A DNA stretch of 42,495 bases from a virus (lineage: Duplodnaviria > Caudoviricetes). This document shows positions 1-37,027 of this stretch, in pieces. A program made the translations under genes and the position numbers. Position 1 is the stretch's first letter, and every line of letters starts with the position of its first letter. The stretch spans positions 1 to 42,495 of IMG/VR virus record IMGVR_UViG_3300016478_000186; one strand, written 5' to 3'. Under the pieces are notes generated by a model. The model saw only the letters and a program-made list of their open reading frames with translations. It had not been told where the DNA came from and made no database searches.

Positions 1-446
1 CCATCCAGTGTAAGGCCTGCTTCGCGGTGTTCGCGCCGGCGCCGGCGTGCCCGTCCTGCGGCCACATCGTCGAGGTGAAGACGCGCAAGCTGGAGCACGT
101 CGACGGTGAGCTGAAAGAGATCACCCCGGAAATGGCCGAGGCCCTGCGCAAGTCGAAGAAGGCCGAGGTCAAAAACGCGAAGTCGCTCGAGGAGCTGGAG
201 CGCATTGGCGCCGAGCGCGGCTACTCGCAGGGCTGGGCGAAGGCCACATGGGAGGCGCGCCAGCGTACCCGCGAGAAGTACCGGCCGACCAGGCCGCCGG
301 AGCCGTCAATCGAGGAGTTGAAGCAGATGTCTCTGGAGCAGCTGGAGAGAGTGGCTGCCGAGCAGGGATGGCCAAGGGACTTCCCGAGTAGCTTTTATTA
401 TTCGCAAGGCGCTGGAGCAGGAGGCGGCAATGGACTGCTGCTCTGA
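1..446 (+). CDS. C-terminal part of a phage SF2 (DEAD/DEAH-like) helicase, truncated at window start
   Basis: Frame is open from the window edge: CxxC...CPSCGH zinc ribbon, 'LEHVDGELKEI', 'RGYSQGWA' tail typical of phage helicase C-termini; upstream of ssb/VRR-NUC/primase. Confidence 0.7.
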   Translation, partial: IQCKACFAVFAPAPACPSCGHIVEVKTRKLEHVDGELKEITPEMAEALRKSKKAEVKNAKSLEELERIGAERGYSQGWAKATWEARQRTREKYRPTRPPEPSIEELKQMSLEQLERVAAEQGWPRDFPSSFYYSQGAGAGGGNGLLL

Positions 447-1203
447 GGCTTACAAAGTTTGCACGAAGTGCAAAGAGCTGAAGCCCCTAACCGACTTCTT
501 CAAGAACAGCGAAAACAAGAAGGATGGGAGAATGGCTCGATGCAAAAGCTGCAAACAAGCAGAGACGGCCAAATGGGTCGCAAACAATCGAGACAGGCGC
601 AATGAGAAAAGGCGGGCCGCAGATCGAAAGCCTGAGCGCATCAAAGTCGCGAAGGCCTGGGAGGACAGGCCAGATGTTCGCGAGCGCAGAAACGCGGCGG
701 CTCGAGATCGAGCAGGCCTCAGAACGCCAGAGCAAAAGGAAAAGGTGTCAGCCTACTTGAAGGAGTACCGGAAGAAGACTCTGCGAGTCCGCAATCCTGA
801 ACAAGACAAGGCATATCGCTACGAATATGTGCGGCGTGAATCATCAAAGGCGCGAGCCAGGGAGTACGCTCGGAAGCGTTCGTCAACTCCTCGCGGGAAT
901 ATCGACAATCGAATGTCATCGGCAATCTGGAAGGCCGTGCAGAAGAACAATCGTTCGTGGGTATCGCTGGTAGGCTACACGCTCGACCAGCTCATGACCC
1001 ACCTGGGAAAGCAGTTCACGAAAGGCATGGGCTGGCACAACTTTGGTGAGTGGCACATCGACCATATCGTCCCGAAGTCATCGTTCACCTACGCGAGCAC
1101 AGACGATCCTGAGTTCAAGGAGTGCTGGTCACTCAGCAACCTTCGGCCGCTATGGGCTGATCAGAACTTGTCCAAGAGTTCGAAGCAAGTTTTCCTGCTG
1201 TAA
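430..1203 (+). CDS. HNH homing endonuclease-like protein
   Basis: N-terminal CTKC...CKSC zinc motif; C-terminal 'WHIDHIVP...LSNLRPLWADQNLSK' HNH-type core. Confidence 0.8.
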   Translation: MDCCSEAYKVCTKCKELKPLTDFFKNSENKKDGRMARCKSCKQAETAKWVANNRDRRNEKRRAADRKPERIKVAKAWEDRPDVRERRNAAARDRAGLRTPEQKEKVSAYLKEYRKKTLRVRNPEQDKAYRYEYVRRESSKARAREYARKRSSTPRGNIDNRMSSAIWKAVQKNNRSWVSLVGYTLDQLMTHLGKQFTKGMGWHNFGEWHIDHIVPKSSFTYASTDDPEFKECWSLSNLRPLWADQNLSKSSKQVFLL

Positions 1204-19041: not shown

Positions 19042-19590
19042 GTGGCAGCGAACGATCCCGAAAGGCAAGGAGGCACGCGAGTGGCCGTACCGGATGAGCG
19101 GTGGGCTGCTGCTCGTGCGCTGTACGAGGGCACTGCCGGCATGACCCTGAAGCGGGTTTCTGAGGAGACCGGCATCCCGAAGGCTACCGTCGAGGTGCGC
19201 GCCAAGACCGAGAAGTGGCGGAAGAATTACCCGCCGGCCAATCTCGGGCCGATATCGCCCCTGGCTCAGGAGGCTGCGGACAAGTACCAGGCCAAGATCG
19301 ATGATGCCGGCCCGGAGGTCACCGCCGAGCAGAAGACCGAGGCCGTGCTGGAAACCGTGGCCGAGGTGGCCGTCGACCAGCGCGCGCAGGTGCTCGATCG
19401 CCATCGCCGCGAGTGGGCGGCTCCTCGAAAGCTGTCGTATGAGGCTGTGCAGAATCGCGACTTCGAGCGCGCCAAGCTGGCCAAGATCACCGCTGAAACC
19501 CTCAAGCTGATTCAGGACGGCGAGCGCAAGGCCTGGGGCCTGGAAGGCGCCGACCCGGACCAGCCCGTTTTTGTCATCGAGCGTGGTTGA
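19042..19590 (+). CDS. terminase small subunit
   Basis: N-terminal HTH ('WAAARALYE...LKRVSEETGIPKATVEVRAKTEKW'), coiled coil, 'LKLIQDGERKAWGL' C-terminus typical of TerS; GAGGAG RBS. Confidence 0.78.
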   Translation: MAANDPERQGGTRVAVPDERWAAARALYEGTAGMTLKRVSEETGIPKATVEVRAKTEKWRKNYPPANLGPISPLAQEAADKYQAKIDDAGPEVTAEQKTEAVLETVAEVAVDQRAQVLDRHRREWAAPRKLSYEAVQNRDFERAKLAKITAETLKLIQDGERKAWGLEGADPDQPVFVIERG

Positions 19591-19594
19591 ACCT

Positions 19595-21055
19595 ATGCAT
19601 ACCCCTGAAATGCCGCAGATTGTCCTGCGTCCGATTGAGAGCCTGGTCGCCTACGCGCGGAATGCTCGCACCCACTCACCCGCCCAGCTCGAGAAGCTGC
19701 AGGCCTCCCTGCGCGAGTTCGGCTGGACCAACCCGGTGCTGGCCGACGCCATGGGCATCGTGGCTGGCCATGGCCGGACCATGGCCGCCGCCGAGATGTA
19801 CAAGCGCGGCGAAGCCATCCGCTTCCCGAACGGCGCGCCCATCCCGCTCGGCATGGTGCCGGTGGTGGACTGCACCGGCTGGTCCGACCAGCAGCGCAAG
19901 GCCTACATCCTGACCGACAACCGCAGCGCCCTCGACGCCGGCTGGGATGAGGAGCTGCTGCGCCTCGAACTGGCCGACCTGCGCGACGACGGCTACGACC
20001 TCAGCCTGACCGGCTTCGAGGATGTGGAGCTGGCCGCTCTGTTCGAGGGCGTGGTCGATCCCGAGCAGAACGACCGGGATCCGGATGATGTTCCGGATGA
20101 ACCTGTCGTGCCGCTGTCGCGCGAGGGTGATGTCTGGGTCTGCGGCCCGCACCGCGTCATGTGTGGGTCGTCGACCGAGATCGCCTGCTGGGACAAGCTG
20201 ATGCAGGGAGAGCTGTGCGATGCGGTGTGGACCGACCCGCCTTATAACGTGAACTATGAGTCCAAGCTGGCCGGGTCGATCAAAAACGACAACATGAAGG
20301 ACTCGGCTTTCCGCCAGTTCCTGCTGGACGCCTACGCTGGCATGTTCTCGGTGATGAAGGCCGGCGCGCCGATCTACGTGGCCCATGCCGACACCGAGGG
20401 CTTCAACTTCCGCGGTGCTTTCCGCGATGCGGGCTTCAAGCTGTCCGGCTGCCTGATCTGGCGGAAGAACAGCCTGGTGCTGGGGCGCTCTGACTACCAG
20501 TGGATGCACGAGCCGATTTTGTATGGCTTCAAGCCGGGCGCCGCCCACCGCTGGTACGGCGGCCGCAAGCTGACCACGATCATCGAGTACGGCGAGAACG
20601 GCCCCATTCGCCAGCTCGAAGACGGCCGCTGGGCTATCACCGTCGGCGACAACGTGCTGGTGGTGTCTGGCGAGGCCACCATCGAGGAGCATCCTGGGTC
20701 GGTGATCTACCACGACAAGCCCTCGCGCTCCGAACTACATCCAACGTGCAAGCCTGTGACCCTGATCGAGAAGATGCTGCGGGCCTCTGCTCGTCCTGGC
20801 GACATCATCGTTGACGCCTTCGGTGGCTCCGGCTCGACGCTGATCGCTGCCGATCGGATGGGCATGTCGGCTCGCCTCATGGAGCTGGACCCGAAGTTCG
20901 TCGACGTCATCACTCGCCGCTACTGGCAGTACACCGGGCGGCGCCCTGTGCATGCCGTGACTGGCGAACCCTTCCCAGAAGAAGGTGGGGCTCGTGCAGA
21001 CGCTCACGATCACGCTGCTGGCGCCGAGACCGCTACGTCAGGAGATTTTTTCTAG
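19595..21055 (+). CDS. ParB-like N-terminal domain fused to an N6/N4 DNA methyltransferase
   Basis: 'YARNARTHS..Q...L.EFGWTNPVL...IVAGHGR' (ParB-N); TDPPYNV catalytic motif; 'HPTCKP', 'DAFGGSGST' SAM motif. Confidence 0.92.
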   Translation: MHTPEMPQIVLRPIESLVAYARNARTHSPAQLEKLQASLREFGWTNPVLADAMGIVAGHGRTMAAAEMYKRGEAIRFPNGAPIPLGMVPVVDCTGWSDQQRKAYILTDNRSALDAGWDEELLRLELADLRDDGYDLSLTGFEDVELAALFEGVVDPEQNDRDPDDVPDEPVVPLSREGDVWVCGPHRVMCGSSTEIACWDKLMQGELCDAVWTDPPYNVNYESKLAGSIKNDNMKDSAFRQFLLDAYAGMFSVMKAGAPIYVAHADTEGFNFRGAFRDAGFKLSGCLIWRKNSLVLGRSDYQWMHEPILYGFKPGAAHRWYGGRKLTTIIEYGENGPIRQLEDGRWAITVGDNVLVVSGEATIEEHPGSVIYHDKPSRSELHPTCKPVTLIEKMLRASARPGDIIVDAFGGSGSTLIAADRMGMSARLMELDPKFVDVITRRYWQYTGRRPVHAVTGEPFPEEGGARADAHDHAAGAETATSGDFF

Positions 21056-21152: not shown

Positions 21153-21719
21153 ATGCAAATCATCACTCGCCAGCAGGCGCTATCTGCTGGGCTTCCTAAA
21201 TACTTCACGGGCAAGCCGTGTGTGAGGGGGCATCTTTCGACGCGCTCAACCCGTGGCAAGGCTTGCGATCAGTGCATGTATGAATTTGGTCGCGCCTACT
21301 ACGCGGATGGTCGTGCGAAAGAATGCCAGCGCAGGCATCGCGCTAAAAATGTGGAAAAGTACCGTGAGTACGACCGCAATCGCGGAAAGCGCAATCGAGC
21401 GGATCCTGTGAAGCGGCTAGCTTCAAACATGCGCTCGTTGGTCAACCAGCACATGCGAAAGCGCGGGTTCTCTAAGAAATCGAAGACATGCCAGATACTC
21501 GGCTGCTCCTGGGAGGAGTTCGCCGCCACCATTGAGCGGCAGTTCCTGCCTGGCATGACTTGGGAAAATCGCCACCTCTGGCAAATTGACCACATCATCC
21601 CGATGTCCACAGCAAAGACCGAGGAAGACGTTCTCGCCTTGAACCACGTTTCGAATCTGAGGCCGATGTGGCGAGAGGATAACCGCGCCAAAAGCGGAAA
21701 GGTGCTGTTCCTAATTTGA
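21153..21719 (+). CDS. HNH homing endonuclease-like protein
   Basis: 'YFTGKPCVRGH' N-terminus; 'WQIDHIIP...NHVSNLRPMW..DNRAK'; related to 430-1203. Confidence 0.82.
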   Translation: MQIITRQQALSAGLPKYFTGKPCVRGHLSTRSTRGKACDQCMYEFGRAYYADGRAKECQRRHRAKNVEKYREYDRNRGKRNRADPVKRLASNMRSLVNQHMRKRGFSKKSKTCQILGCSWEEFAATIERQFLPGMTWENRHLWQIDHIIPMSTAKTEEDVLALNHVSNLRPMWREDNRAKSGKVLFLI

Positions 21720-21786: not shown

Positions 21787-22338
21787 GTGAAGAAAGTCCT
21801 GATTGTCGACGGCAGCCTGGCCAAGGCGCACGTCAACTCCTACACCCGGTCGGACGGCACCTTCGTGAAGGAGCACGACAACGGCCGCCAGGCTGCGGCG
21901 CCGAAGCCAGCAGCTGGCCGCCGCCCGTCTGCCAAGGCTCCGGCCTTCGACCACCCGAACGTGGTCGCCCACAATGCCCGCATGACCTCCTCGCACTACG
22001 AGCCTGGCAAAGGCTCGAAGGAGGTCGAGGCCAAAGATGCGGCCGATGCCGACACCGTGCACTTCGCTGGCAAGCGCTACAGCTGGACCTCGAAGACCGG
22101 CAAGTCGAACCACGACGGCACCCCGGTGCGCGCCTTCGAGCACGAGGAGTCTGGCCACCGCGTCTGGGTGGACGACAAGCGCCGCGTGCACGCCGATTCC
22201 ACCGACGAGGTGGACCGCCTGCGCAAGGAGCACGCCGACCATGAGGCCAAGCAGGGCGCTGGCAAGGCTCCGGCGACGAAGGTGATGGTGCGCAAGGATG
22301 CGGCTGCATCTGCCGGCGGCAAGAAGCCCTCGACCTGA
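21787..22338 (+). CDS. putative virion/internal head protein with N-terminal YTRxDG motif; frame continues past TGA to 22569
   Basis: 'LAKAHVNSYTRSDGTFVKEH'; GAGG RBS. Confidence 0.7.
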   Translation: MKKVLIVDGSLAKAHVNSYTRSDGTFVKEHDNGRQAAAPKPAAGRRPSAKAPAFDHPNVVAHNARMTSSHYEPGKGSKEVEAKDAADADTVHFAGKRYSWTSKTGKSNHDGTPVRAFEHEESGHRVWVDDKRRVHADSTDEVDRLRKEHADHEAKQGAGKAPATKVMVRKDAAASAGGKKPST

Positions 22339-22722: not shown

Positions 22723-25700
22723 ATGACGACGCCAATCCCCTCCGCAGCGCTGCTCGGCAACAAGCGGCTACTGCTCGTAAAGTCCACGGCCTCTGCTGTT
22801 GAAGCGGAGCTGCTGAAAGCCACCGTGTCGAAGACCATCGTCGTGCCTGCGTACACGCGCAAGGATGGCGTGGTGGTGCCGGCCCACACCAAGGTGGTGC
22901 ACTACGACCCATCGAAGGACGTCGCCGACGTTCTTTCGGGCAAGGGGTCGCACTCGCAGAAGCAGGCGCACAAGAAGCTGTCGAAGCTCGGGCACTGGGA
23001 GTCGCTCGAGGACTCGCACAAGCTGGCGCATATCCTGTCCTCGGCCACGAATATTCAGCAGAAGGCGTCGGCCTCCGCTGCCGTGTCTGGCTGGAAGGCG
23101 TCGATGCTGGCCGGGAAGAAGCCGACCGCCTCCCAGCAGGCCGCGTTTGATGCGCTGCCGGCCGACAAGCAGGCTGCGCTGCAGGCTGAGGTGGGCAAGC
23201 CGGTTACAGCTCCGGTTGCGGCTCCGGTTACAGAGCCTGTCGCTGCTGCCCCTGCCTACCAGCCCGTGCCCAGCGCCCTGGGCGGCCTTGGGAACGAGGG
23301 CCCGGTCATCCATGTGGATGCGCCCGACTACGCTGCTGTCGAGAAAGCGCTCGGCCTGGAGCCTGGCTCCCTGGAAGGCGAGGACTCGACCACCTACACC
23401 ATCAAGAACGCTGCCGGCCAGACCTTCTCGGTCTACAAGCACGGCGGCGGCCTATCGGTGCGAACCTCTGGCGCGAACAAGGACACCTCCAGCGCGCTTG
23501 CCCTTGCTGACCACCTGGCGTTGATCGGCAAGCCGGCCGAGGCTTCGCCTGCTGCCGTTCCCCTGGTTACCGGTGCCGACGGCCAGCCGAAGGTGTTCTA
23601 TCACGGCGGTACCGGAAGTGTGGATTCCGCCGACCTCAAGCCGCTGACCTTCTTCACCTCGGACAAGGAAACCGCGCTTTCCTACGTCGGCAACAACTCC
23701 GAGGACGAAAAGCTGCACGCCGTGCACCTGGCGATCGGCAAGGTGGCCACTCCCGATGATGTGAAAGCCGCTGCGAACAAGGTCGGCCTGACTGGTGACG
23801 ATGTCGGCGTCGATGAGGAGTACCATGCTGGCTACGAGTACCTGTCGCCGCACCTGAACCCGCACGTTGAGAAGGTCCTGGCCGAGCTCAAGAAGCAGGG
23901 CTTCGACGGCGCGCACTTCCCGACCGACTTCAAGCTGTCCGGTGAGCTGATGCCTGGCGGGTCCTGGGTCGTGTTCGGCAAAGGCCAGGTGGTACCGGCT
24001 TCCGGCGATCATGGTCTGCAGGGCGTCGGCTCATGGGCGCACCTGTCGCAGTACAAGTCGCAGCATCCGATGTTCATCACTGCCCAGGCAAAGGCCTGGC
24101 TGGCGGACAACCCGGGCAAGGGCGCCGAGCTCTCCTCGACGCTGGTAGACCTCGGCCACCTGGATATTGCGAAGAAGCTCGGGGTCTACACCCCGCCGAG
24201 CTGGGCGTCTCCGCAGGAGAAGGCGGCCGCTGCTGGCCCGAAGGAGGGCGACACCAAGCCTGCGGCCGACGGCGGCACGCTGGTGCTCAAGGATGGCCAT
24301 TGGGTCAAGCAAGGCGGTGAAGCGCCGAAAGCTAAGCAGCCTGCTAGCCTCGCGATGCCAGCTTTCGAAGAGGGCAAGGAGAAGGCTGGCGTCAAGGCCC
24401 ACTACGAGAAGGTCGGCCAGAAGGTGCTCGACCTGGCCTCCGCCGGCGACGCAGCCGGCCTCGAGAAGCTCAAGGCCGACGGCCTGAAGCCGAACTCGAA
24501 GGGCAAGGTCGGTAACACCTGGAAGGGCAAGACCCAGAACAGCAAGCTGCTGCTCGCACTGCATGACCAGGCGCTGGCGCACACCAAGGGCAACACCACT
24601 GCGGATCAGCCAGCTCAGGCCGTAAGCGCTGAACCCGTTCCGGCACCGGCTGCTCCGGCGGCCGAGGCCAGCCCCATCGCTGCATCCAAGCTCACCCAGA
24701 TCCCGTGGGATGCCCAGCTCCTGCCTGATGCCAACTCCAACGCCAAGAGCCACAACGGCCAGGTCGCCAAGATCAAGGCCATGGCCGAGGCTGGTGATGT
24801 GGCTGGCCTGCAGGCATACGTCGATGCCAAGGCTGGCGCCAAGCAGACCTATGCGAAGAAGCAACACCTGCTCGCTGCTACTGCCCTGGCCGCGCTGAAG
24901 GAGGACGGTGCTCCCGCTGCTCCGGAGGCTAACCCGCTGGCTGGCGTTTCTGCTGCTGAAGCGATCGCCAAGAACCCTCATATGCCCCAGCTAAAGCTCA
25001 AGGAGCTTTGGATCGACGCGAACGCCGACAAGGTGGGCGCTCAGGCTGAGTGGGCCATGGCGGTCAACCCGGCGCCGGCCAAGCCTGCGCGCCTGGCCGA
25101 ATCCCAGAAGAAGATGATCGACGATATCGCCACCTGGCCGGATGCCAAGTACCACCTGGCCAATATCGTCGGCGGTGGCAATCCGGCTGCTGCGGCTTAC
25201 GCTCAGCAGCTGCTGGACGCGAAGAAGGCCACCGTCGCGGTCGACAAGCCGAAGCCTCCCACCGGCATCGAGGAGCACTCCGAAGCTGGCGCCTACCTGG
25301 CCGATGCGGCGTATGGCCTGGAGCACAAGGACCTGCCGACCCTGCAGGACGTAATCACCGCGCTGCAGGGCGACATGCCTGCGCCTGGCTCGGACGCGGA
25401 TAAGGTCCTGCAGTTCGCCAAAAATGCGTACAAGCATGTCGCTGGCGCTGCGCCTGCCACCTCGAAGCCTGCCGACCCTACTGTTGCCGAGCTGGCTCCC
25501 ATGATGGAGGCCGTCAATTCCGCTGGCTCGGCGGAAGGCGCCAAGAAAGCCGCGCTCCGGTACCTGAACGCTTTCCCGGACTCGCAGCTGGCTATCAACC
25601 AGGTGCACGACGCCCTGGTCAACGCTGGGCATGCCGCTATGGCCGCCGCCTTCGCGAAGGACGGCAAGTCGGGCCTGGAGGCGTTCAAGCCTGCCGCTCC

Positions 25701-28284
25701 TGCTGGCCCATCCAAGGTCACCGCCGAGCTGTTCCACAACACCTCGGAGGGGCATAACAAGTTCTGGGCCGTGTCGGTCAACGGCAACGTAGTGAAGACC
25801 ACCTACGGCAAGATCGGCTCGAAAGGGCAGACCACCGAGAAGGTGTTCGGCTCCAAGGCCGAGGCGCAGTCGCACGCCACCACGCTGATGCTGCAGAAGC
25901 ACAAGGGCGGTTACGTGCCGGCCGGCAAGACCGAGCACGAGTATGCCGCGCCTGCTGCCGAGCAGGGCCCGAAAGATGGCGACACCAAGCAGGGCGCCGA
26001 CGGCATGCTGGTGTTCACGGATGGGCGCTGGCACAAACTGTCGGAGAAGGCCAAGGCGGCGATCGATTCCCTATCGCTTGATGACCTTAAGGAATTTGCT
26101 GACACACCGGGAATGCCGGTTGCGCAAAACGCCTACATCAAGGCGAAGTTGGCGGGCGCCGAACCCATGGACTCCTGGCAGCAGACCGGCGGCGAGGAGT
26201 CCGATGCCTGGGCGTTCACCGAGAAGGACCCGAGCTTCAGTGGCGTCAACACGCTGATGGCGGATATGGACGGCCTTTCCGTCTATATCGCCTACGAGCC
26301 TGAGTCGGCAACCTTCGAGGTGGGCCAGATTCATCCTGGCGCCGACGAGCCGGAGGCCGATCACTTCAGTGACCCGAAGAAGGCACTCGACTACCTGGCC
26401 AGCATGTACGGCGCCTCGGTCGAAATGCCGAGCCTGGGCCAGGTGGAGAAGCTGACTGGCAAGGTCAGCGGCGCGACCTACTCGCCCAAGGTTCCGACCC
26501 CTGACAACTACGTGCCTTCGTCCGGTACCGGCTACGAAGCCATGGATGGGTGGAAGCAGACCGGCCCGCAGGGCGGCTCGAACCCGGGCGGCCGGTTCCG
26601 CGACGAGTTCGGCGTGGAGTGGTACTGCAAATTCCCGGCGGACGAGGATATCGCCAAGTCCGAGGTTCTGGCTGCCAAGCTGTACGCTGCTCTGGGCGTC
26701 TCGGGGCAGGATTGCAAGCTGGTGACCAAGGGCGGAAAGGTCGGCATTGCCTCGCGCTGGATCGATGTGAAGAAGGGCACTGCTGCCCAGCTCGCCAAGC
26801 TGGACGGCACCGCCTCTGGCTTCGCTGCTGATGCGTGGCTGGCAAACCATGACGTTGTCGGTCTGGCCTTCGACAACCTGCAGATCGGTCCCGACGGCAA
26901 GGCTCACCGCGTCGATGCTGGTGGCTCGCTGCAGTACCGGGCCCAGGGCGGAAAGAAGGCGTTCGGTCCTACCGTGTCCGAGATAGATTCCCTGCGCGAC
27001 CCGGCGATCAACTCCAAGTCTGCGGCCGTGTTCGGCAAGATGACTGAGGCCGACATCACCGCCTCGGTGGCAAAGGTGCTGGCGCTGCCTGACTCGGCGA
27101 TCACCAACCTGGTGAACCAGTACGGCCCTGGCTCCGATGCGGACAAGCTGGCGCTGGCGCAGACCCTGATCGCGCGCAAGGCTGACCTGGCTAAGAAGTA
27201 CCCGAAGGCGGCCAAGGCACCGAAGAAGCGGCTCGACCCCACCAACCTGCCGGTGGATGCCGCGATGCTGCCGAAGCCGCACGACTTTGAAAACTGGAAT
27301 GGTCCGGGCCAAGGCCTGAGCTCGAAGGCGCACGTTAACAAGGCAAACGCGGCGATCGAGTACCAGATTCTGGGCGTGGCGCAGATGGGCAACCTGCCGA
27401 AGCTGCAGGCCTTCGAATATGCCCAGATCGACAAGGAAACGGGCCAGCCGAACGGCAAGATGCTGCCGATCGCCAACCACCCGTCGAAGCATGTCGTTCA
27501 GTACCATGCCGACCTGGTGACCATGCTCGACGAAATGGCAAACCCGCCGGAGCCGCTGAAGGTCTTCCAAGAGACTGATATCAGCACGCTGGAGCAGCTG
27601 TCCGCGTCGCTGCCGCCGAAGAAGTTCGGTACCACCGTCGACTCGGTGAAGTCCAACGAGAAGCTGGGCTTCTGGGTGGTGCTCGGCGTGGCTCCTGGCG
27701 CGGTCAACCTGGCGCCTAAGAAGTTCATGGCCTACAGCCAGGCCGCTATCGCCGCCGGCTACGAGAAGTACAAGCAGGGCACCAGCCTGGCGAAGCACTT
27801 TATCAAGTCGGTGCAGGCCTCCGGCTCGTATAACGACCTGTTCCGCAACGGCAAGAAAACCGACCACTCTGGAAACCTGTTGTCCGATGTGGCCAAGGCC
27901 GCGCTGCAGCATGCGACCACTCAGCCGGAGGGGACCTCGCTGTACCGCTGGCAGAAGATGACCGATGCCATGGTGCAGAAGATCATGGCCGCGCCGGAGG
28001 GTACCGTCTTCCAGGCTACCGGCCCGATGTGCACTTCCTACGACCCGACCGCGACGAAGCACTTCGGTACCCACCGGGTAACGGTTCGCTACGCCAAGGG
28101 CGCGAAGGCTGTCGAATCCTTCGGATCGAATGGCTATCAGTCGGAGAAGGAGGTAACCACCCTGCCAAACTCTCGGTTTGTCATCCTGAAGCGCAACATG
28201 GTACCGGATGTGGAGCACGGCAATCCGCACAAGACCCGCCTGGAGCTCGAGGTGTTGATGCTTCCGCCGGACCTTGGACTGTGA
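22723..28284 (+). CDS. giant polyvalent protein: two ADP-ribosyltransferase-like domains, WGR domain, HipA/PI-kinase-like domain
   Basis: YHG...FFT...Y...GFDG...VVF (ART-like, about 23590-23980); HNKFWAV...TYGKIGSKGQ (WGR, about 25730-25920); GGSNPGG...YCK...EVLAAKLY...NHD...DN...RVDAG (kinase-like, about 26570-26950); LYR...CTS...EKE (R-S-E ART, about 27940-28260). Confidence 0.82.
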   Translation: MTTPIPSAALLGNKRLLLVKSTASAVEAELLKATVSKTIVVPAYTRKDGVVVPAHTKVVHYDPSKDVADVLSGKGSHSQKQAHKKLSKLGHWESLEDSHKLAHILSSATNIQQKASASAAVSGWKASMLAGKKPTASQQAAFDALPADKQAALQAEVGKPVTAPVAAPVTEPVAAAPAYQPVPSALGGLGNEGPVIHVDAPDYAAVEKALGLEPGSLEGEDSTTYTIKNAAGQTFSVYKHGGGLSVRTSGANKDTSSALALADHLALIGKPAEASPAAVPLVTGADGQPKVFYHGGTGSVDSADLKPLTFFTSDKETALSYVGNNSEDEKLHAVHLAIGKVATPDDVKAAANKVGLTGDDVGVDEEYHAGYEYLSPHLNPHVEKVLAELKKQGFDGAHFPTDFKLSGELMPGGSWVVFGKGQVVPASGDHGLQGVGSWAHLSQYKSQHPMFITAQAKAWLADNPGKGAELSSTLVDLGHLDIAKKLGVYTPPSWASPQEKAAAAGPKEGDTKPAADGGTLVLKDGHWVKQGGEAPKAKQPASLAMPAFEEGKEKAGVKAHYEKVGQKVLDLASAGDAAGLEKLKADGLKPNSKGKVGNTWKGKTQNSKLLLALHDQALAHTKGNTTADQPAQAVSAEPVPAPAAPAAEASPIAASKLTQIPWDAQLLPDANSNAKSHNGQVAKIKAMAEAGDVAGLQAYVDAKAGAKQTYAKKQHLLAATALAALKEDGAPAAPEANPLAGVSAAEAIAKNPHMPQLKLKELWIDANADKVGAQAEWAMAVNPAPAKPARLAESQKKMIDDIATWPDAKYHLANIVGGGNPAAAAYAQQLLDAKKATVAVDKPKPPTGIEEHSEAGAYLADAAYGLEHKDLPTLQDVITALQGDMPAPGSDADKVLQFAKNAYKHVAGAAPATSKPADPTVAELAPMMEAVNSAGSAEGAKKAALRYLNAFPDSQLAINQVHDALVNAGHAAMAAAFAKDGKSGLEAFKPAAPAGPSKVTAELFHNTSEGHNKFWAVSVNGNVVKTTYGKIGSKGQTTEKVFGSKAEAQSHATTLMLQKHKGGYVPAGKTEHEYAAPAAEQGPKDGDTKQGADGMLVFTDGRWHKLSEKAKAAIDSLSLDDLKEFADTPGMPVAQNAYIKAKLAGAEPMDSWQQTGGEESDAWAFTEKDPSFSGVNTLMADMDGLSVYIAYEPESATFEVGQIHPGADEPEADHFSDPKKALDYLASMYGASVEMPSLGQVEKLTGKVSGATYSPKVPTPDNYVPSSGTGYEAMDGWKQTGPQGGSNPGGRFRDEFGVEWYCKFPADEDIAKSEVLAAKLYAALGVSGQDCKLVTKGGKVGIASRWIDVKKGTAAQLAKLDGTASGFAADAWLANHDVVGLAFDNLQIGPDGKAHRVDAGGSLQYRAQGGKKAFGPTVSEIDSLRDPAINSKSAAVFGKMTEADITASVAKVLALPDSAITNLVNQYGPGSDADKLALAQTLIARKADLAKKYPKAAKAPKKRLDPTNLPVDAAMLPKPHDFENWNGPGQGLSSKAHVNKANAAIEYQILGVAQMGNLPKLQAFEYAQIDKETGQPNGKMLPIANHPSKHVVQYHADLVTMLDEMANPPEPLKVFQETDISTLEQLSASLPPKKFGTTVDSVKSNEKLGFWVVLGVAPGAVNLAPKKFMAYSQAAIAAGYEKYKQGTSLAKHFIKSVQASGSYNDLFRNGKKTDHSGNLLSDVAKAALQHATTQPEGTSLYRWQKMTDAMVQKIMAAPEGTVFQATGPMCTSYDPTATKHFGTHRVTVRYAKGAKAVESFGSNGYQSEKEVTTLPNSRFVILKRNMVPDVEHGNPHKTRLELEVLMLPPDLGL

Positions 28285-28316: not shown

Positions 28317-28814
28317 ATGTCTGACCCGCGTGAAATCGAAGACTCCCCAGAGCGCGCTGCTGATCGTGGCCGGCAGGAGGACCTGGGCTTTAGCATGGAC
28401 TCCCGGCCGTCGCTGGGTAATCGGGACGTCGTCCGCGCCCTGGTGTCGGAGTTCGCCACCCGGATCGTCAACCTGCGCAAGGACTACAACCTCGACAAGC
28501 TGACGGGCGAGCAGGCGCAGGCCAAGGTCCGCGAGCTCGCCCGGGAGTATGGCGATGTGATCATGGGGCGCGACCTCAGCTATTTCGCGCTGCCCTGGAA
28601 CAACGAGCATCGGCTGGGGCTGCGGATCCGCATGGTGGTACCGGCTATCGATGGCGTCACCGACCCTGGCGAGCTGTTGTTCCTCACCGTTGGTACCTCG
28701 CTCATGTCGATCGCCAAGGCGCACGAAGAGGGGCGCTTGCCTGATGCTGATGGCGAGAAGCACACGCAGGCCATGCTCGCCGACACCGCTGACCTGATCG
28801 TGGGTATCCGCTGA
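28317..28814 (+). CDS. hypothetical protein
   Basis: GAGGA RBS; coupled (TGATG) to the Nudix gene. Confidence 0.75.
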   Translation: MSDPREIEDSPERAADRGRQEDLGFSMDSRPSLGNRDVVRALVSEFATRIVNLRKDYNLDKLTGEQAQAKVRELAREYGDVIMGRDLSYFALPWNNEHRLGLRIRMVVPAIDGVTDPGELLFLTVGTSLMSIAKAHEEGRLPDADGEKHTQAMLADTADLIVGIR

Positions 28815-29641
28815 TGGCTGATGATCTGCTCGACCTCGTGAAGGGCCACGTTAAAGGCTACAGCCGGCGCGATGGCACCTATGTGAAGCCTCACGACCGC
28901 GACACGGGCCCTCTGGCGCATGCTGAGCCGCATTACGCTGCTCCGGTGCACCACCACCCCCGTTCGAGCGATGACGGGGCTCCTGTGGTCATCAAGACCC
29001 CTTCGCACGCCAGCGCTCCCAGCACTTGGCACAACCCGGATGCGGTGGCCACCTTTGTGCCTGACGGCGATGTGCCGCTTTCGCTGAACGGCATTGCCCT
29101 GCGCGCCTGGCGTGACCACCCGACGACCGCCGAGGGCTGGGATTTTGTCGACGGCGTCGATGACAACCTGGCTGAGCCTCCGTTCGTGCTGCCGCCCGGC
29201 AAAAAGGCTGCAGCAGGCGTGCTTATCGAGGAGTCGGATGGGCGTGTCTGGCTGGTGGCGCCGACCAACCAGTTCGGTGGGTACCAGGCCAGCTTCCCGA
29301 AGGGCACGGCTGAGCCTGACCTTTCCTTGCAGGCCACGGCCATCAAGGAGTGCTTCGAGGAGACGGGCCTGCAGGTGAAGATCACCGGCTTTGCTGGCGA
29401 CTTCGAGCGCACCACTTCGAAGGTCCGCATGTACAAGGCCCGGCGCGTCGGCGGCCTGCCTACCGCGATGGGCTGGGAAAGCCAGGCCGTGCACCTGGTG
29501 CCCAAGGGCATGCTCTACGACCACCTGAATCTCTGGCCTGATCACCCGATCGCCGAGGCTATTGGTGCTGGTCCCGCTCCGAAGAAGCCAGAAACGCCAG
29601 CCTTCTGGAAGAATAGCGGGAGTCAAAAAACGCTGTTCTGA
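28814..29641 (+). CDS. Nudix hydrolase with N-terminal YSRxDG motif
   Basis: 'FPKGTAEPDLSLQATAIKECFEETGL' Nudix box (first Glu replaced); N-terminus 'LVKGHVKGYSRRDGTYVKPH'. Confidence 0.85.
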   Translation: MADDLLDLVKGHVKGYSRRDGTYVKPHDRDTGPLAHAEPHYAAPVHHHPRSSDDGAPVVIKTPSHASAPSTWHNPDAVATFVPDGDVPLSLNGIALRAWRDHPTTAEGWDFVDGVDDNLAEPPFVLPPGKKAAAGVLIEESDGRVWLVAPTNQFGGYQASFPKGTAEPDLSLQATAIKECFEETGLQVKITGFAGDFERTTSKVRMYKARRVGGLPTAMGWESQAVHLVPKGMLYDHLNLWPDHPIAEAIGAGPAPKKPETPAFWKNSGSQKTLF

Positions 29642-29715: not shown

Positions 29716-30066
29716 ATGTGGATCTGCTTAAGTGATGCGTTTCTGTCGATCGTAGAGCCTGCGCCAGGCTCCGATACTCTGCTGGTTCGTGCTCGCCGTG
29801 ATGGTGACATTGAACGCGTCTTTACCAGTGCGGTTGTAAAGAAAACTCCTGGTCGCGATTACCTATTCCGAGCCATTATCCCCCGAGAGCAGGTGGCATC
29901 TGTGATCGGCCAGCATGTGGCTGGCATCGGTTATCAGAATTTCAAGTCGTCGGTTTCCGATAACCGCCTGCACGACGCTTTCGCCGGCTTCTGGTCGATC
30001 ATGTCGCGCCTGCAGCCCATTCCGCCGTACTCTCGTGGCCGTGGTCGCCAGGGTGATCTGCTGTGA
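29716..30066 (+). CDS. hypothetical phage protein
   Basis: MWICLSDAFLSIV...LLVRARR...DYLFRA...Y.NFK; AAGG RBS. Confidence 0.75.
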   Translation: MWICLSDAFLSIVEPAPGSDTLLVRARRDGDIERVFTSAVVKKTPGRDYLFRAIIPREQVASVIGQHVAGIGYQNFKSSVSDNRLHDAFAGFWSIMSRLQPIPPYSRGRGRQGDLL

Positions 30067-31279: not shown

Positions 31280-32281
31280 ATGGATTCGACGTTTGAGATC
31301 AAGCTGGGCGACTGCCTGGAGAGCTTGCGCGCCATGCCGGATAAATCGGTGCACTGCTGCATCACCAGCCCGCCCTACTTCGGCCTGCGCGATTATGGTG
31401 TCGACGGGCAGATCGGCTTGGAGCCTACGCCGGAAGAGTTCGTGCAGGCGCTGGTCAAGGTGTTCCGCGAGGTGCGCCGCGTGCTGCGCGATGATGGGAC
31501 GCTGTGGCTGAACATTGGGGACAGCTATGCCCGAACCGGCGGCACCGACCGCAAGGTTTCTGCCAGTGCCAAGGTGGGCAGCACGCGCAACACGCTGGAG
31601 CAGATGAGCGACAGAACGAGCCGCGCCGCTTCGCTTGGCCTGAAGGATAAAGACCTGATCGGCATCCCGTGGATGCTGGCCTTCGCCCTGCGCGCCGATG
31701 GCTGGTATCTGCGCCAAGACATTATCTGGCACAAGCCGAACCCGATGCCGGAGAGCGTGCGCGACCGCTGCACGAAGGCGCATGAGTACGTGTTTCTGCT
31801 GTCGAAGGGGCCGAAGTATTACTTCGATGCGGATGCGGTTAAGGAGCCTGCCGTGTGCGACCGCATGCGCGGGCCAGCCGAGCATGCCGACAAGAAAAGC
31901 ACCAACGGCAATGGCGGTCTGAGCAGGCGCGAGCCACAGCCTTTTCGGAACCGTCGCAGCGTCTGGTCGGTAGCCACTCGCTCTTACAAGGGCGCCCACT
32001 TCGCCACGTTTCCGCCCGACCTGATCGAGCCGTGCATTTTGGCAGGCTGCCCGGCTGGCGGCACTGTGCTCGACCCGTTCGGCGGCAGCGGCACTACGGC
32101 AGGCGTCGCCTTGGCCCATGGGCGCAACGCCATACTGTGCGAGCTGAACCCGGAGTACGCCGCGCTGGTGCCGGCGCGCATCGAGAGCATCCTTGTCGGT
32201 TACGGCAAGAAGCCCAAGACCAAGCTCAAGCCCGTTTCCGCCACCAAGCAGAAGGAGCTATTCGATGGCGCTCACTGCTGA
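31280..32281 (+). CDS. N4-cytosine/N6-adenine DNA methyltransferase (beta class)
   Basis: 'TSPPYFGLRDY', 'IIWHKPNPMPESVRDR', 'HFATFP', 'LDPFGGSGTT'. Confidence 0.93.
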   Translation: MDSTFEIKLGDCLESLRAMPDKSVHCCITSPPYFGLRDYGVDGQIGLEPTPEEFVQALVKVFREVRRVLRDDGTLWLNIGDSYARTGGTDRKVSASAKVGSTRNTLEQMSDRTSRAASLGLKDKDLIGIPWMLAFALRADGWYLRQDIIWHKPNPMPESVRDRCTKAHEYVFLLSKGPKYYFDADAVKEPAVCDRMRGPAEHADKKSTNGNGGLSRREPQPFRNRRSVWSVATRSYKGAHFATFPPDLIEPCILAGCPAGGTVLDPFGGSGTTAGVALAHGRNAILCELNPEYAALVPARIESILVGYGKKPKTKLKPVSATKQKELFDGAHC

Positions 32282-34371: not shown

Positions 34372-34387
34372 GTCGTGAGTGCAGATT
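34372..34387 (+). promoter_or_regulatory. putative phage late promoter motif (leaderless)
   Basis: GTCGTGAGTGCAGATT; in-frame ATG 7 nt downstream (34394). Confidence 0.6.
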
Positions 34388-34393
34388 CTGCCA

Positions 34394-37027
34394 ATGCCTG
34401 AGATTACGATCCGCCTTCCTGCCCCGCACCCTGCCCAACAGAAGATCCTGGCCAAGCCCTCCAGGTATAACGTCGTCTGCATGGGCGAGAAGGGCGGCAA
34501 GACTACGCTTGGCATTGAGGTGCTGATCGCTTCCCGGCGCGGCGCGCTGTACAGCAAGGTGCCGGTCGCCTGGTTCTCTCCGTTTAAGGATGACCTGGTC
34601 GAGGTAAAGCGGCTGGTCAAGCGGGCGATCGACTCCCTGATCAAGCGCCAGGTCAACTCTCGGCGCATTGAGCTCGTAAACGGCAATTTCATCGACTTCT
34701 ATTCGATGGATGAGCTGCCGAACGCCTTCCCGCAGTACGGCCTGATCGTCGTGGACGATGTGCGCAAGGTTCCCAGCTTTCAGGACAAGTTTCAGGATAC
34801 GCTGCAGGAGACCCTGCGCGAGCGGAATGGTCAGGCGTGGCTGCTGTCTGGCGCCTACGGGATGAAGAACGACTTTTACCACCTGTTCCGTCGCGGCCTG
34901 ACCGATGGCGACTGGTCGTGCTGGCAGTTCGACTCCTGGTGCAATCCAGACCTGCCGCAGTCGGCGATCGATGAGGCGGAGCGAATTTCCGACCTGGAGT
35001 GCCGGCAGCGCTTCGGTGCTGAATTCCTCGAGCACGCCATCGAGCTCTCGGACACCCAGCGCATTATCGCCCCTGACGAGACGTTCCTGCAGTGGTGTGA
35101 GCGGCTGGAGGCCTCGGGCCTGAAGGTGGACGGCCACAACTTCACCCTGTCCAACCGTCCGGCCATGCGCTTCATCTATGAAATGATCCCGTCGACCGTC
35201 GAGGAGGCCTTCGACCGCACCGACGTCATCATGAAGTGCACGCAGGTTGGCTTCACCGTCATGGAAATGCTGGCCATGATCTATCTGGCCATCAAGTTTT
35301 CCCCGGCGAAGATCGGTATGTTCATGCCGTCGACCATGCTGGCTTCGGGCAAGTCCTCCGAGCGCTTCATGCCGATCGTCCGCACCATCCCTGCCATTTA
35401 CTCGCTGATGACCGACAAGGAGTCGGTGGGCTCCAAGGGTGGCGAGGGTAACGTGCTGATCCGTAACGTCGGGCCATCGCGCTTCCACTTCCTGTGGACC
35501 TCGGGCAAGACCTCTACCGAGTCCAACCCGATGGATATCATCTCGTTCGACGAGGTGCAGGAGATGTCTATCGCGGATATGGAAAAGACCCGCGAGCGTA
35601 TGTCCGCCTCCCGGGTCCGCTATACCCTGATGGGCTCGACGGCAAACTGGCCGGATTCGGACATTCACTGGTGGTACAAAAAGGGGACCCAGCACCAGTT
35701 CCACACCATGTGCCCCGAGTGCGGTGCTGGACAGGTGCTGGACGAGCACTTCCCGCAGTGCATTGGCTACGACCCTAACCACCCGCGTCGCGTGTCACGG
35801 CATGGCCAGAAGGCAGCGCTTGGCGAATACCGGTACCGGTGCCATTCGTGCTCTGGCTGGATCGATGACCCGCAGGTGGGCGAGTGGATTGCCAAAAACC
35901 CGGACGCCGATATTCGCTCGGTGCACTTCCCGCAGTTCCTATCGCCGACCATCTCGCCCCGGGACATCATCGAGGCGTATCACAACGCCGACGATATGAA
36001 GAACTTCTTTAACCGGAAGCTGGGCAAGCCCTACACCGACCCGTCTCAGGTGCCGGTGAACCTGGAAATGCTCAACGAGTGCGCTCGCCTGGGCATGGCT
36101 GCAGGCCTGGCGTGGAAGGCTCGGGCCTCTGGCACGTTCATGGGCATCGACCAGATGGGTAACTTCAACGTCGCCATTATCAAAGAGCGGATGCCTGATG
36201 GCCGGCAGGCGGTGGTGCACCTGGAGTACATCTTCACGGCGCCGACCAAGGAAAACCCAGAGGCCTCGCCTTTCGATCGATGCGACGAGCTCATGCGCCA
36301 GTACGGTGTTCAGTGCTGCGTGATGGAGACGCTGCCGAACTACAACGACGCCAAGCGTTTTGCCCAGCGCCACCCTGGTAAGGTGTTTCTTGCTGGCTAC
36401 GGCAACCTGCAGGAGGAAATGTTGCGCTGGGGCGATACCCCGAAGCAGAACACTTCCGATCGCCGGACCAGCGAGGAGGAGCGCGACGACTGGACGGTGA
36501 CCCTGGACCAGTACAAGTGCATGCAGGTGTCGATGAAGCGCTTCCAGAACTACACCTGCCTGTTCCCGGATCCGGACGGCCTGGTTCAAGAGGTCAAGGA
36601 AAAGGGCGTCACGCAGACCATGGCCGTGTGCAAGGAGCTGGCCTTCTTCCACTTCACTCGAACCGCGCTGATCGCGGAGAAGGACGAGGAAGAGAAGAAG
36701 TACCGCCGGCGCGTGGTCAAGGTCGGTATTGACCCGCACACCAGCTACGCCAACATGCTGTGCGACGTCGCCTGGTCGCGCGCATACGGCACTTCGACGT
36801 TTATCCTGCCGGACGTATCGCCGACGAACAAAGGCCCGTCACAGCCGAACGTGGGTCGCGTGCCGGGCACTGCTGGCGCGGTAATGGAGCAAATCGAGCA
36901 GCTCGTGTCGGATACCTGTGGCGGTTGCGCCAGCCGGGACCCGAACACGAGCTATTGCAAGGAAATGGAGGCTTTCGTGCGTCCGCAGGATCCTGGCTGC
37001 TGGGCGTACATTGCTCGCCAGTCCTAG
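34394..37027 (+). CDS. terminase large subunit (lambda gpA-like) with an extra N-terminal degenerate terminase-ATPase module
   Basis: 'KCTQVGFT' gpA-type Walker A, 'ISFDEV' Walker B, CPEC/CHSC zinc motifs, 'FMGID' nuclease motif; extra N-terminal about 220 aa with 'HPAQ..I', 'GEKGGKT', 'IVVDD'. Confidence 0.88.
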   Translation: MPEITIRLPAPHPAQQKILAKPSRYNVVCMGEKGGKTTLGIEVLIASRRGALYSKVPVAWFSPFKDDLVEVKRLVKRAIDSLIKRQVNSRRIELVNGNFIDFYSMDELPNAFPQYGLIVVDDVRKVPSFQDKFQDTLQETLRERNGQAWLLSGAYGMKNDFYHLFRRGLTDGDWSCWQFDSWCNPDLPQSAIDEAERISDLECRQRFGAEFLEHAIELSDTQRIIAPDETFLQWCERLEASGLKVDGHNFTLSNRPAMRFIYEMIPSTVEEAFDRTDVIMKCTQVGFTVMEMLAMIYLAIKFSPAKIGMFMPSTMLASGKSSERFMPIVRTIPAIYSLMTDKESVGSKGGEGNVLIRNVGPSRFHFLWTSGKTSTESNPMDIISFDEVQEMSIADMEKTRERMSASRVRYTLMGSTANWPDSDIHWWYKKGTQHQFHTMCPECGAGQVLDEHFPQCIGYDPNHPRRVSRHGQKAALGEYRYRCHSCSGWIDDPQVGEWIAKNPDADIRSVHFPQFLSPTISPRDIIEAYHNADDMKNFFNRKLGKPYTDPSQVPVNLEMLNECARLGMAAGLAWKARASGTFMGIDQMGNFNVAIIKERMPDGRQAVVHLEYIFTAPTKENPEASPFDRCDELMRQYGVQCCVMETLPNYNDAKRFAQRHPGKVFLAGYGNLQEEMLRWGDTPKQNTSDRRTSEEERDDWTVTLDQYKCMQVSMKRFQNYTCLFPDPDGLVQEVKEKGVTQTMAVCKELAFFHFTRTALIAEKDEEEKKYRRRVVKVGIDPHTSYANMLCDVAWSRAYGTSTFILPDVSPTNKGPSQPNVGRVPGTAGAVMEQIEQLVSDTCGGCASRDPNTSYCKEMEAFVRPQDPGCWAYIARQS

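What the first reader, a model, noticed from the sequence alone, without database searches (positions are those of the whole stretch)
22723..28284. 1853-aa polyvalent effector with two ART-like domains, WGR and a kinase-like fold
Seen: an ART-like segment YHG/FFT/GFDG/VVF (about 23590-23980); a WGR-like domain (about 25730-25920; WGR is the nucleic-acid-binding domain of PARPs); a HipA/PI3-PI4-kinase-like domain (GGSNPGG loop, K, E, NHD...DN, VD; about 26570-26950); and a C-terminal R-S-E ART (LYR 27940, CTS 28030, EKE 28144) of the VIP2/Alt type. The first ART-like domain ends 'SWVVF' with no Glu at the usual catalytic position and may be inactive or binding-only. Inference: a host-takeover or anti-defence protein able to ADP-ribosylate and phosphorylate targets, possibly activated by DNA through WGR.
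Basis: partly seen in the sequence, partly recalled or inferred. Interest (0 to 1): 0.8.

Follow-up and report, generated by a model that had tools for sequence, protein, structure and literature searches.

The report
Phage kinase-toxin with swappable antidote cassette
A giant phage protein with a predicted kinase fold and a predicted ADP-ribosyltransferase toxin fold swaps its toxin end together with the small gene behind it, which likely encodes the antidote, and the protein is likely packed into the virus head and injected to disarm the infected bacterium.

Summary
All four domains are there. WGR is a clear Pfam hit. The kinase models as CtkA/HipA/PI4K-like (Z 16.4) and the C-terminal domain as a C3/VIP2-type R-S-ExE ADP-ribosyltransferase (ART; Z 14.9); catalytic residues of both are near-invariant. 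The first ART is ART-PolyVal, just under cut-off, with Ser in the acid column across its subfamily. The gene lies in a Dolphis/Mecenats66/ST4-like phage (relatives 86-95 kb). The constant core is kinase-linker-ART; WGR (90 of 230 homologues) and this first ART (7 of 230) are optional, so WGR activation is unlikely to be central. Linker+ART and the next gene (28317, helical, no match found) swap as one block with a sharp break after the kinase: 74 of 74 complete ARTs are followed by it, and its identity tracks the ART (rho 0.71), not the kinase (0.13). This is a toxin-immunity signature. The giant (202 of 228) and the Nudix (49 of 56), but not 28317 (0 of 56), carry an N-terminal [LMFI]xK[SA] motif shared with head proteins. 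Best reading: a head-loaded, injected polymorphic effector with cognate immunity. Binding, packaging, activity and targets are untested.

The parts
22723..28284 (+). 1853-aa modular effector
   Evidence: 636 homologues for its C-terminal 589 aa among 7993 candidates scored
22765..22890 (+). N-terminal leader: RLLLVKS (res 15-21), LLKA (30-33), AYTRKDG..V..H (43-); candidate head-targeting/prohead-protease site (inferred)
   Evidence: [LMFI]xK[SA] in the first 40 aa of 202 of 228 family proteins against 6.9% of control windows
23575..24015 (+). optional ART-PolyVal-like domain (H294, F310, S414; conserved D402)
   Evidence: Pfam E 1.7e-6, under cut-off; alignments; this subfamily in 7 of 230 homologues
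24235..24303 (+). GPKEGD..DGHW short repeat, copy 1 (copy 2 at 25966-26031)
   Evidence: 1-3 copies in 160 of 252 fetched proteins
25735..25929 (+). optional WGR domain (YGK variant)
   Evidence: Pfam E 2.3e-14; PDB 2ra8 E 1.8e-8; in 90 of 230 homologues
26536..27222 (+). CtkA/HipA/PI4K-fold kinase (K1303, E1314, D1377-x7-N1385, D1398); constant part of the system
   Evidence: E1314 186, D1377 186, N1385 188, D1398 187 of 189
27223..27708 (+). folded linker domain, swaps with the ART; no fold assigned
27709..28281 (+). C3/VIP2-fold R-S-ExE ADP-ribosyltransferase (R1742, S1772, E1808, E1810)
   Evidence: S 244, E 244, E 244, R 203 (K 41) of 245
28317..28814 (+). 165-aa all-helical protein, candidate cognate immunity protein; no leader motif
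28814..29641 (+). Nudix hydrolase with LVKG/YSRRDG leader; fused to the kinase or to the giant in other phages
   Evidence: Pfam E 9.9e-12
29716..30066 (+). 116-aa conserved gene, usually closes the cassette but also occurs alone
   Evidence: 20 of 29 fresh loci lack the kinase
21787..22338 (+). 183-aa basic protein with the same LAKA/YTRSDG leader; possibly co-packaged (inferred)

Best explanation
This is a modular phage effector with a predicted CtkA/HipA-like kinase fold and a predicted VIP2/C3-like ADP-ribosyltransferase fold, likely loaded into the head through an N-terminal leader and injected with the DNA, whose ART end swaps between phages together with the next gene, a likely binding immunity protein. 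Shown: the two predicted folds, conserved catalytic residues, the gene order, co-swapping of linker+ART+28317 between constant kinase and Nudix flanks, and the distribution of the leader motif. Inferred mechanism: (1) late in infection the giant and the Nudix are made; 28317 binds the linker/ART and keeps it off in the producing cell; (2) the [LMFI]xK[SA] leader directs both into the prohead, where the maturation protease may clip it, while the leaderless 28317 stays behind or dissociates; (3) in the next cell the ART mono-ADP-ribosylates arginines (ExE motif; established for VIP2/Alt/Tre1-type enzymes, recalled) and the kinase phosphorylates host proteins, blunting defence or redirecting expression; (4) the Nudix clears ADP-ribose/NAD-derived products or signals; (5) newly made 28317 then limits the ART, and protects cells carrying a prophage with the same ART type. 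WGR, ART-PolyVal, GNAT and InPase are interchangeable add-ons in the Ala/Pro/Lys-rich N-terminal two-thirds. Targets are unknown.
For: Folds. Conservation. Phage identity: terminase 70% identical to Aeromonas phage ST4; the 8 cultured phages with a full-length terminase match are the same 8 with the full core and the Nudix; Mecenats66 is a myovirus (PMC9503643). Cassette: 74 of 74 complete linker+ART proteins among 193 distinct loci are followed by a 28317 homologue, 21 of them outside the HMM training set; it is seen in only 2 of 91 loci without the linker, one of which is 5'-truncated inside an ART. It also follows in 8 of 8 fresh linker+ART loci found with an unrelated query, and in two phages where the effector sits among head genes (L011, L141). 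Co-variation over 56 loci, 1540 pairs: 28317~ART rho 0.71, 28317~kinase 0.13, kinase~Nudix 0.64, ART~kinase 0.09. Tree conflicts: ART vs 28317 2 of 20 supported splits, kinase vs ART 9 of 26. Identity falls from about 70% to 8-16% at residue 1497 in five relatives. Leader: 202 of 228 giants, 49 of 56 Nudix, 0 of 56 28317 homologues; all 5 head-module proteins of Yersinia phage fHe-Yen8-01 have it against 21 of the other 131. The same kinase is fused to MuF or minor capsid domains in 9 of 35 hand-picked proteins scanned. Precedent: Bxa-Bsi (PMC11699363); MuF toxins (PMC5576092).
Against: No binding, toxicity or activity data. Neighbouring DNA exchanged in one event co-varies whether or not the products bind, and the locus pairs are not independent. 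28317 correlates as well with the linker as with the ART (partial 0.32 vs 0.33). The Yersinia orthologue of 28317 is labelled particle-associated, against 'stays behind'; but that label is on 52 of 136 genes, including primase and methyltransferases, so it is weak both ways. The giant has no MuF domain. The leader is a 4-residue pattern defined after seeing the data, the window's Nudix has the variant LVKG, and no paper on it was found. The 28317 HMM was built from loci chosen for this gene order. Bordetella phage PHB04 gave no hit for the core or the Nudix and has no large gene in the 14 kb before its terminase, so the cassette is dispensable.
Confidence: 0.58

Rival explanations
1. An Alt-like injected host-takeover enzyme that needs no antidote: 28317 is a chaperone, packaging adaptor or target-recruiting partner of the linker/ART and travels in the virion.
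For: The orthologue gp130 is annotated particle-associated. Any cognate binder gives the same co-variation. T4 Alt is packaged and injected (PMC5512222).
Against: 28317 homologues lack the leader (0 of 56) and are the fastest-diverging part (mean identity 0.26). A small gene directly behind a swappable C-terminal toxin domain is the usual immunity layout. One homologue occurs without an ART in a bacterial contig (L175).
Confidence: 0.18
2. Not packaged: a cytoplasmic toxin-antitoxin or superinfection-exclusion module of a temperate phage, triggered inside the lysogen.
For: Intact cassettes lie in bacterial contigs (L164, L166-L170). HipA-fold kinases are TA toxins. The gene is 6 kb upstream of the terminase, among methylases, not in the head cluster.
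Against: Head-protein-like leader on the giant and the Nudix; MuF, portal and minor-capsid fusions or neighbours of the same kinase; particle-associated note (weak).
Confidence: 0.1
3. Same cassette, but the kinase acts on a lipid or small molecule (for example a nucleotide signal) together with the Nudix, not on proteins.
For: PI4KII Z 12.6 and MavQ Z 12.5. Kinase and Nudix co-vary (rho 0.64) and are fused, in either order, in over 20 loci. The catalytic loop is a non-standard D-x7-N.
Against: The best matches are the protein kinases CtkA (Z 15.7-16.4) and CotH (13.2). The R-H of the PI3K/PI4K DRH loop (recalled) is absent.
Confidence: 0.1
4. One reading: a PARP-like protein in which DNA binding by WGR switches on the ART and kinase activities.
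For: WGR is real. Six of the 7 full-length homologues with this first-ART subfamily also have WGR (three are near-identical), as do P0126 and P0032, so a WGR-to-first-ART link is possible.
Against: 140 of 230 homologues lack WGR yet keep the core. The motif is YGK in 57 of 95 WGR domains and WGR in none matched. Five first-ART relatives have no WGR.
Confidence: 0.05

Closest known systems
MuF polymorphic toxins (PMC5576092) and the Bxa/Bsi/BAH system of Bacteroides stercoris (PMC11699363)
   Same: Phage-encoded variable C-terminal ART with a small gene directly behind it; head association; a second, enzymatic ADP-ribose-processing neighbour.
   Different: No MuF domain; a constant kinase precedes the toxin; swapping is among R-S-E ART subtypes with a dedicated linker; the enzyme neighbour is a Nudix, not an ARH; the 28317 family matches nothing named.
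Phage polyvalent proteins (Iyer 2017, PMC5512222)
   Same: Giant multidomain phage protein; ART-PolyVal here, GNAT and InPase in homologues; LPD38 on relatives of the kinase.
   Different: [quoted passage not shown] Here an R-S-E ART is the core and the kinase keeps a helical C-lobe.
T4 Alt / ModA / ModB
   Same: R-S-E ART of a myovirus; Alt is packaged and injected. ModA/ModB appear as weak fold hits.
   Different: No kinase, no polymorphism and no cognate partner described for Alt in the passages read; targets here unknown.
Helicobacter CtkA; HipA/CotH/PI4KII/MavQ kinases
   Same: Fold (Z 11.7-16.4) and K, E, D, N, D residues.
   Different: 10-18% identity; GSNPGG loop and D-x7-N loop; no HipB/HipS recognised among the neighbours; phage head context.

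Membership tests
R-S-E (VIP2/C3/Alt) ART | ART fold with the VIP2/C3 helical N-part | tested here: met
   Z 14.9, rmsd 2.9, 176 aligned; profile E 1.7e-9 to VIP2
R-S-E (VIP2/C3/Alt) ART | R, S and ExE residues | tested here: met
   R1742, S1772, E1808, E1810
R-S-E (VIP2/C3/Alt) ART | NAD+-dependent transfer to arginine | not testable with these tools
   needs an assay
CtkA/HipA/PI3-4K-like kinase | Fold | tested here: met
   CtkA Z 16.4, 212 aligned; CotH, PI4KII, HipA
CtkA/HipA/PI3-4K-like kinase | Catalytic K, E, D, N, D conserved | tested here: met
   186-188 of 189; K was part of a search pattern, the others were not
HipA family proper (PF07804 / HipBA module) | Profile match above cut-off | tested here: not met
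   no hit for this protein; one homologue E 0.0066, under cut-off; atlas neighbours HipA_2 46%, PI3_PI4_kinase 12%
ART-PolyVal (PF18760) | Profile match at gathering score | tested here: inconclusive
   29.3 vs 31.2 bits; three subfamily relatives pass
ART-PolyVal (PF18760) | H-Y-D active-site triad | tested here: not met
   H294, F310, S414 by alignment; a conserved D402 lies upstream; the domain was not folded
WGR domain | Profile match | tested here: met
   53.7 bits vs cut-off 22
WGR domain | W-G-R signature | tested here: not met
   YGK at 1028-1030
MuF polymorphic toxins | N-terminal MuF domain | tested here: not met
   no PF04233 hit; the phage group has a separate MuF-like gene by motif (Yersinia gp2; recalled motif)
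Polymorphic toxin-immunity systems | Variable C-terminal toxin on a constant N-terminal neighbour, exchanged with the downstream gene | tested here: met
Polymorphic toxin-immunity systems | Downstream product binds and neutralises the toxin | not tested
   needs a bench test; no complex prediction was obtained
Virion-packaged polyvalent effectors | Presence in the particle and injection | tested here: inconclusive
   record note on the Yersinia orthologue, permissive at 52 of 136; leader motif

The most novel reading that the evidence does not exclude
A MuF-independent route for loading effectors into phage heads, using a short [LMFI]xK[SA] leader shared with portal, protease, scaffold and capsid proteins, delivers a polymorphic ART whose cognate inhibitor gives kin recognition among phages: an incoming phage is neutralised in cells holding a prophage of its own ART type and poisons or overrides the rest. 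It travels with an undescribed, widespread phage kinase family of CtkA fold.
Probability: 0.25. Interest if true: 0.85.

Novelty: new variant of a known kind. Interest (0 to 1): 0.6.

Why it matters
It gives a testable injected counter-defence package in cultured, tractable phages (ST4, Dolphis, Jeremy, ECML-606-1). It includes a kinase family that has no Pfam or NCBIfam model and recurs in head-associated proteins across many phages, a candidate new family of ART inhibitors with natural cognate and non-cognate pairs, and a candidate short head-targeting signal. What MuF-type and polyvalent effectors do on injection is still largely open, and this cassette makes the question directly testable. 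Head-packaged ARTs and ART-immunity pairs are known in principle, which caps the surprise.

Tried and rejected
Sequence searches did not identify the kinase; only folding did. The first ART was not folded; a PDB profile search with a full-length alignment gave only low-complexity noise, and a viral-contig scan found no relative. 28317: no PDB sequence hit, no atlas hit, best solved-structure match Z 7.0 to TetR C-terminal helices (not meaningful for a helical bundle, and no proof of a new fold); four unnamed viral models match. A reciprocal scan from 28317 found nothing, so its restriction to ART loci was tested only within kinase- and 29716-selected loci. The idea that 29716 is the kinase's antitoxin was weakened: it follows the kinase in ART-free loci, but 20 of 29 fresh loci with at least 3 kb upstream have no kinase and it co-varies poorly (rho 0.28). 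No meaningful DNA repeats, promoters or terminators beyond chance; no tRNA. The long opposite-strand ORFs (for example 26071-28230) are taken as GC-rich shadows; not tested further. Earlier scan notes: nothing. Paper searches found no description of this cassette, kinase family or leader; subscription papers and the supplements of PMC5512222 and PMC9503650 were not seen and may list these proteins.

Full report
Observation. The ORF and every quoted motif are at the stated places. The window is a 42,495-base phage contig with primase, SSB, methylases, dUTPase, a gpA-type terminase and a portal. The terminase is 70% identical to that of Aeromonas phage ST4 and 40-68% to Touem01, Dolphis, Jeremy, fHe-Yen8-01, phiT5282EW, ECML-606-1 and Mecenats66 (86-95 kb). 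The same eight records carry the kinase-ART core and the Nudix. Mecenats66 is a myovirus (PMC9503643, passages). The host is unknown.

Domains. WGR is a clear Pfam hit (E 2.3e-14) with a YGK signature. Residues 285-431 match ART-PolyVal at E 1.7e-6, just under cut-off. Residues 1272-1853 were folded with a 95-sequence alignment (mean pLDDT 91.9, pTM 0.63). Model residues 1-231 match CtkA (Z 16.4, rmsd 3.7, 212 aligned) and 392-577 match C3/VIP2 ARTs (Z 14.9, rmsd 2.9, 176 aligned). A search of 48,161 representatives adds CotH 13.2, PI4KII 12.6, MavQ 12.5 and HipA 11.7. The linker between them folds confidently but was barely tested. Among 189 kinase stretches, E1314, D1377, N1385 and D1398 are kept in 186-188 (numbering there +5). 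The ART's ExE is kept in 53 of 53 loci and 244 of 245 proteins (these were retrieved with a query that includes the ART). The first ART has H294, F310 and S414; S414 aligns with the E of another ART-PolyVal, and S/T is shared by 11 of 11 subfamily members, some fused to MuF or Nudix. The family is described as H-Y-D (PMC5512222, section 9), so its activity is undecided.

Constant and optional parts. The core has 636 homologues among 7993 candidates and 975 clusters at 50% identity with E under 1e-30. Of 230 fetched proteins of 1000 aa or more with kinase and ART, 90 have WGR and 7 have this first-ART subfamily; others carry GNAT, InPase or a different ART-PolyVal. The N-terminal two-thirds is an Ala/Pro/Lys-rich scaffold that accepts modules. 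P0126 has our N-terminus, first ART and WGR but no kinase or ART core. DNA-gating through WGR cannot be the general mechanism.

The cassette. The order giant, 165-aa gene, Nudix, 116-aa gene is conserved. In 193 distinct loci found through the kinase (best 80 kept per collection scan), 74 have a complete linker+ART protein and all 74 are followed by a 28317 homologue; 21 of these were outside the HMM training set, though some are near-duplicates. Of 91 loci without the linker and with at least 700 bases downstream, 2 have it: one contig starts inside an ART, one is an orphan. Four loci truncated inside the ART gene were left out. Eight further linker+ART loci found with the 116-aa gene all have it. 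So do two phages in which the effector sits among head genes with the Nudix fused in front. In 56 de-duplicated loci the 28317 family tracks ART (rho 0.71) and linker (0.72), not kinase (0.13) or Nudix (0.14), while kinase tracks Nudix (0.64). Within one kinase/Nudix cluster there are three ART types, each with its own 28317 type, and identity collapses at residue 1497, right after the kinase. This is the genetic signature of a polymorphic toxin and its immunity protein. It shows joint exchange, not binding. 28317 models as an all-helical protein (pLDDT 90.4) with no convincing solved match.

Delivery. Family proteins begin with a motif like RLLLLKS. The pattern [LMFI]xK[SA] is in the first 40 residues of 202 of 228 giants (6.9% of control windows), near the start of 49 of 56 Nudix proteins and in 0 of 56 28317 homologues. 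In Yersinia phage fHe-Yen8-01 it is in the first 60 residues of portal, gp2, head protease, gp4 and major head protein (5 of 5; 26 of 136 overall), with six copies each in gp3 and gp4. Cleavage of capsid precursors after Lys before Ser is recalled from HK97 and A511, and comes from no call (searches gave nothing). The pattern was defined after seeing the data. The same kinase is fused to MuF or minor-capsid domains in 9 of 35 selected proteins and follows the portal gene in Gordonia phage Forza. The Yersinia orthologues of the giant, 28317 and the Nudix are annotated particle-associated, but so are 52 of 136 genes. PHB04 appears to lack the cassette, so it is accessory.

Mechanism. Most likely (0.58): made late, held off by 28317, loaded by the leader, injected; then arginine ADP-ribosylation and phosphorylation of host proteins, with the Nudix handling ADP-ribose products and new 28317 limiting the toxin. 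Folds, residues, gene order, co-swapping and motif distribution are shown; packaging, binding, catalysis and targets are inferred. Rivals: 28317 as chaperone or adaptor (0.18), an unpackaged TA or exclusion module (0.10), a lipid or small-molecule kinase (0.10), WGR gating (0.05).

Comparison. It works like MuF toxins (PMC5576092, passages) and Bxa-Bsi-BAH (PMC11699363, abstract and section 6) but has no MuF domain. It shares domains with polyvalent proteins, although that paper excludes Alt/VIP2 ARTs from them and describes a truncated kinase (PMC5512222, passages and section 9). Head-packaged ARTs and Nudix proteins are anticipated in PMC9503650 (passages and section 27). PMC7824862 and PMC3601020 (passages) added nothing specific. 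Nine paper searches found no account of this cassette; supplements were not seen. Verdict: a real feature, a new variant of a known kind, interest 0.6.

Noticed in passing
L175:6710-9063: Orphan 28317 homologue, Nudix-kinase fusion and 116-aa gene with no ART, in a bacterial MAG contig between a Lon-like gene and genes that look like a type VI secretion cluster (by eye); possibly host-captured immunity.
   Followed up: partly
L176, L187, L191, L194, L196, L197, L200, L201, L228, L231: The same kinase sits in 2,900-5,500+ aa bacterial proteins (mostly actinobacterial), up to five copies in L228; L186 has WXG100+Nudix+kinase+ART.
   Followed up: no
L179, L180, L182: Stand-alone 242-aa version of the kinase in Rhodopseudomonas genomes.
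   Followed up: no
L038, L055, L056, L062, L154, L172: Kinase proteins, five of these six with a MuF domain, bearing a conserved-looking 550-590-aa C-terminal region with no Pfam match; a candidate unknown effector.
   Followed up: no
L047, L052, L057, L061, L066, L068, L078: A second kinase copy fused behind the Nudix, so these cassettes carry two kinases.
   Followed up: partly
window 21787-22338, 22849-22890, 28859-28900: Three ORFs share a Y(T/S)RxDGxxVxxH motif right after the leader; function unknown.
   Followed up: partly
window 430-1203 and 21153-21719: Two endonuclease VII/HNH-like genes (phrog_1035); a similar gene is inserted after the Nudix in L001 and L005.
   Followed up: no
window 19571-21055 and 31280-32281: Two N6/N4 DNA methyltransferases flank the cassette; the first has a ParB-like N-terminus.
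   Followed up: no
window 34379-37027: 882-aa gpA-type terminase whose N-terminal ~190 aa corresponds to a separate gene in Bordetella phage PHB04 by position.
   Followed up: no
L233:33847-34125 (minus strand): A small DNA-binding protein of fHe-Yen8-01 starts with MLTKA and is annotated particle-associated, fitting the leader idea.
   Followed up: no
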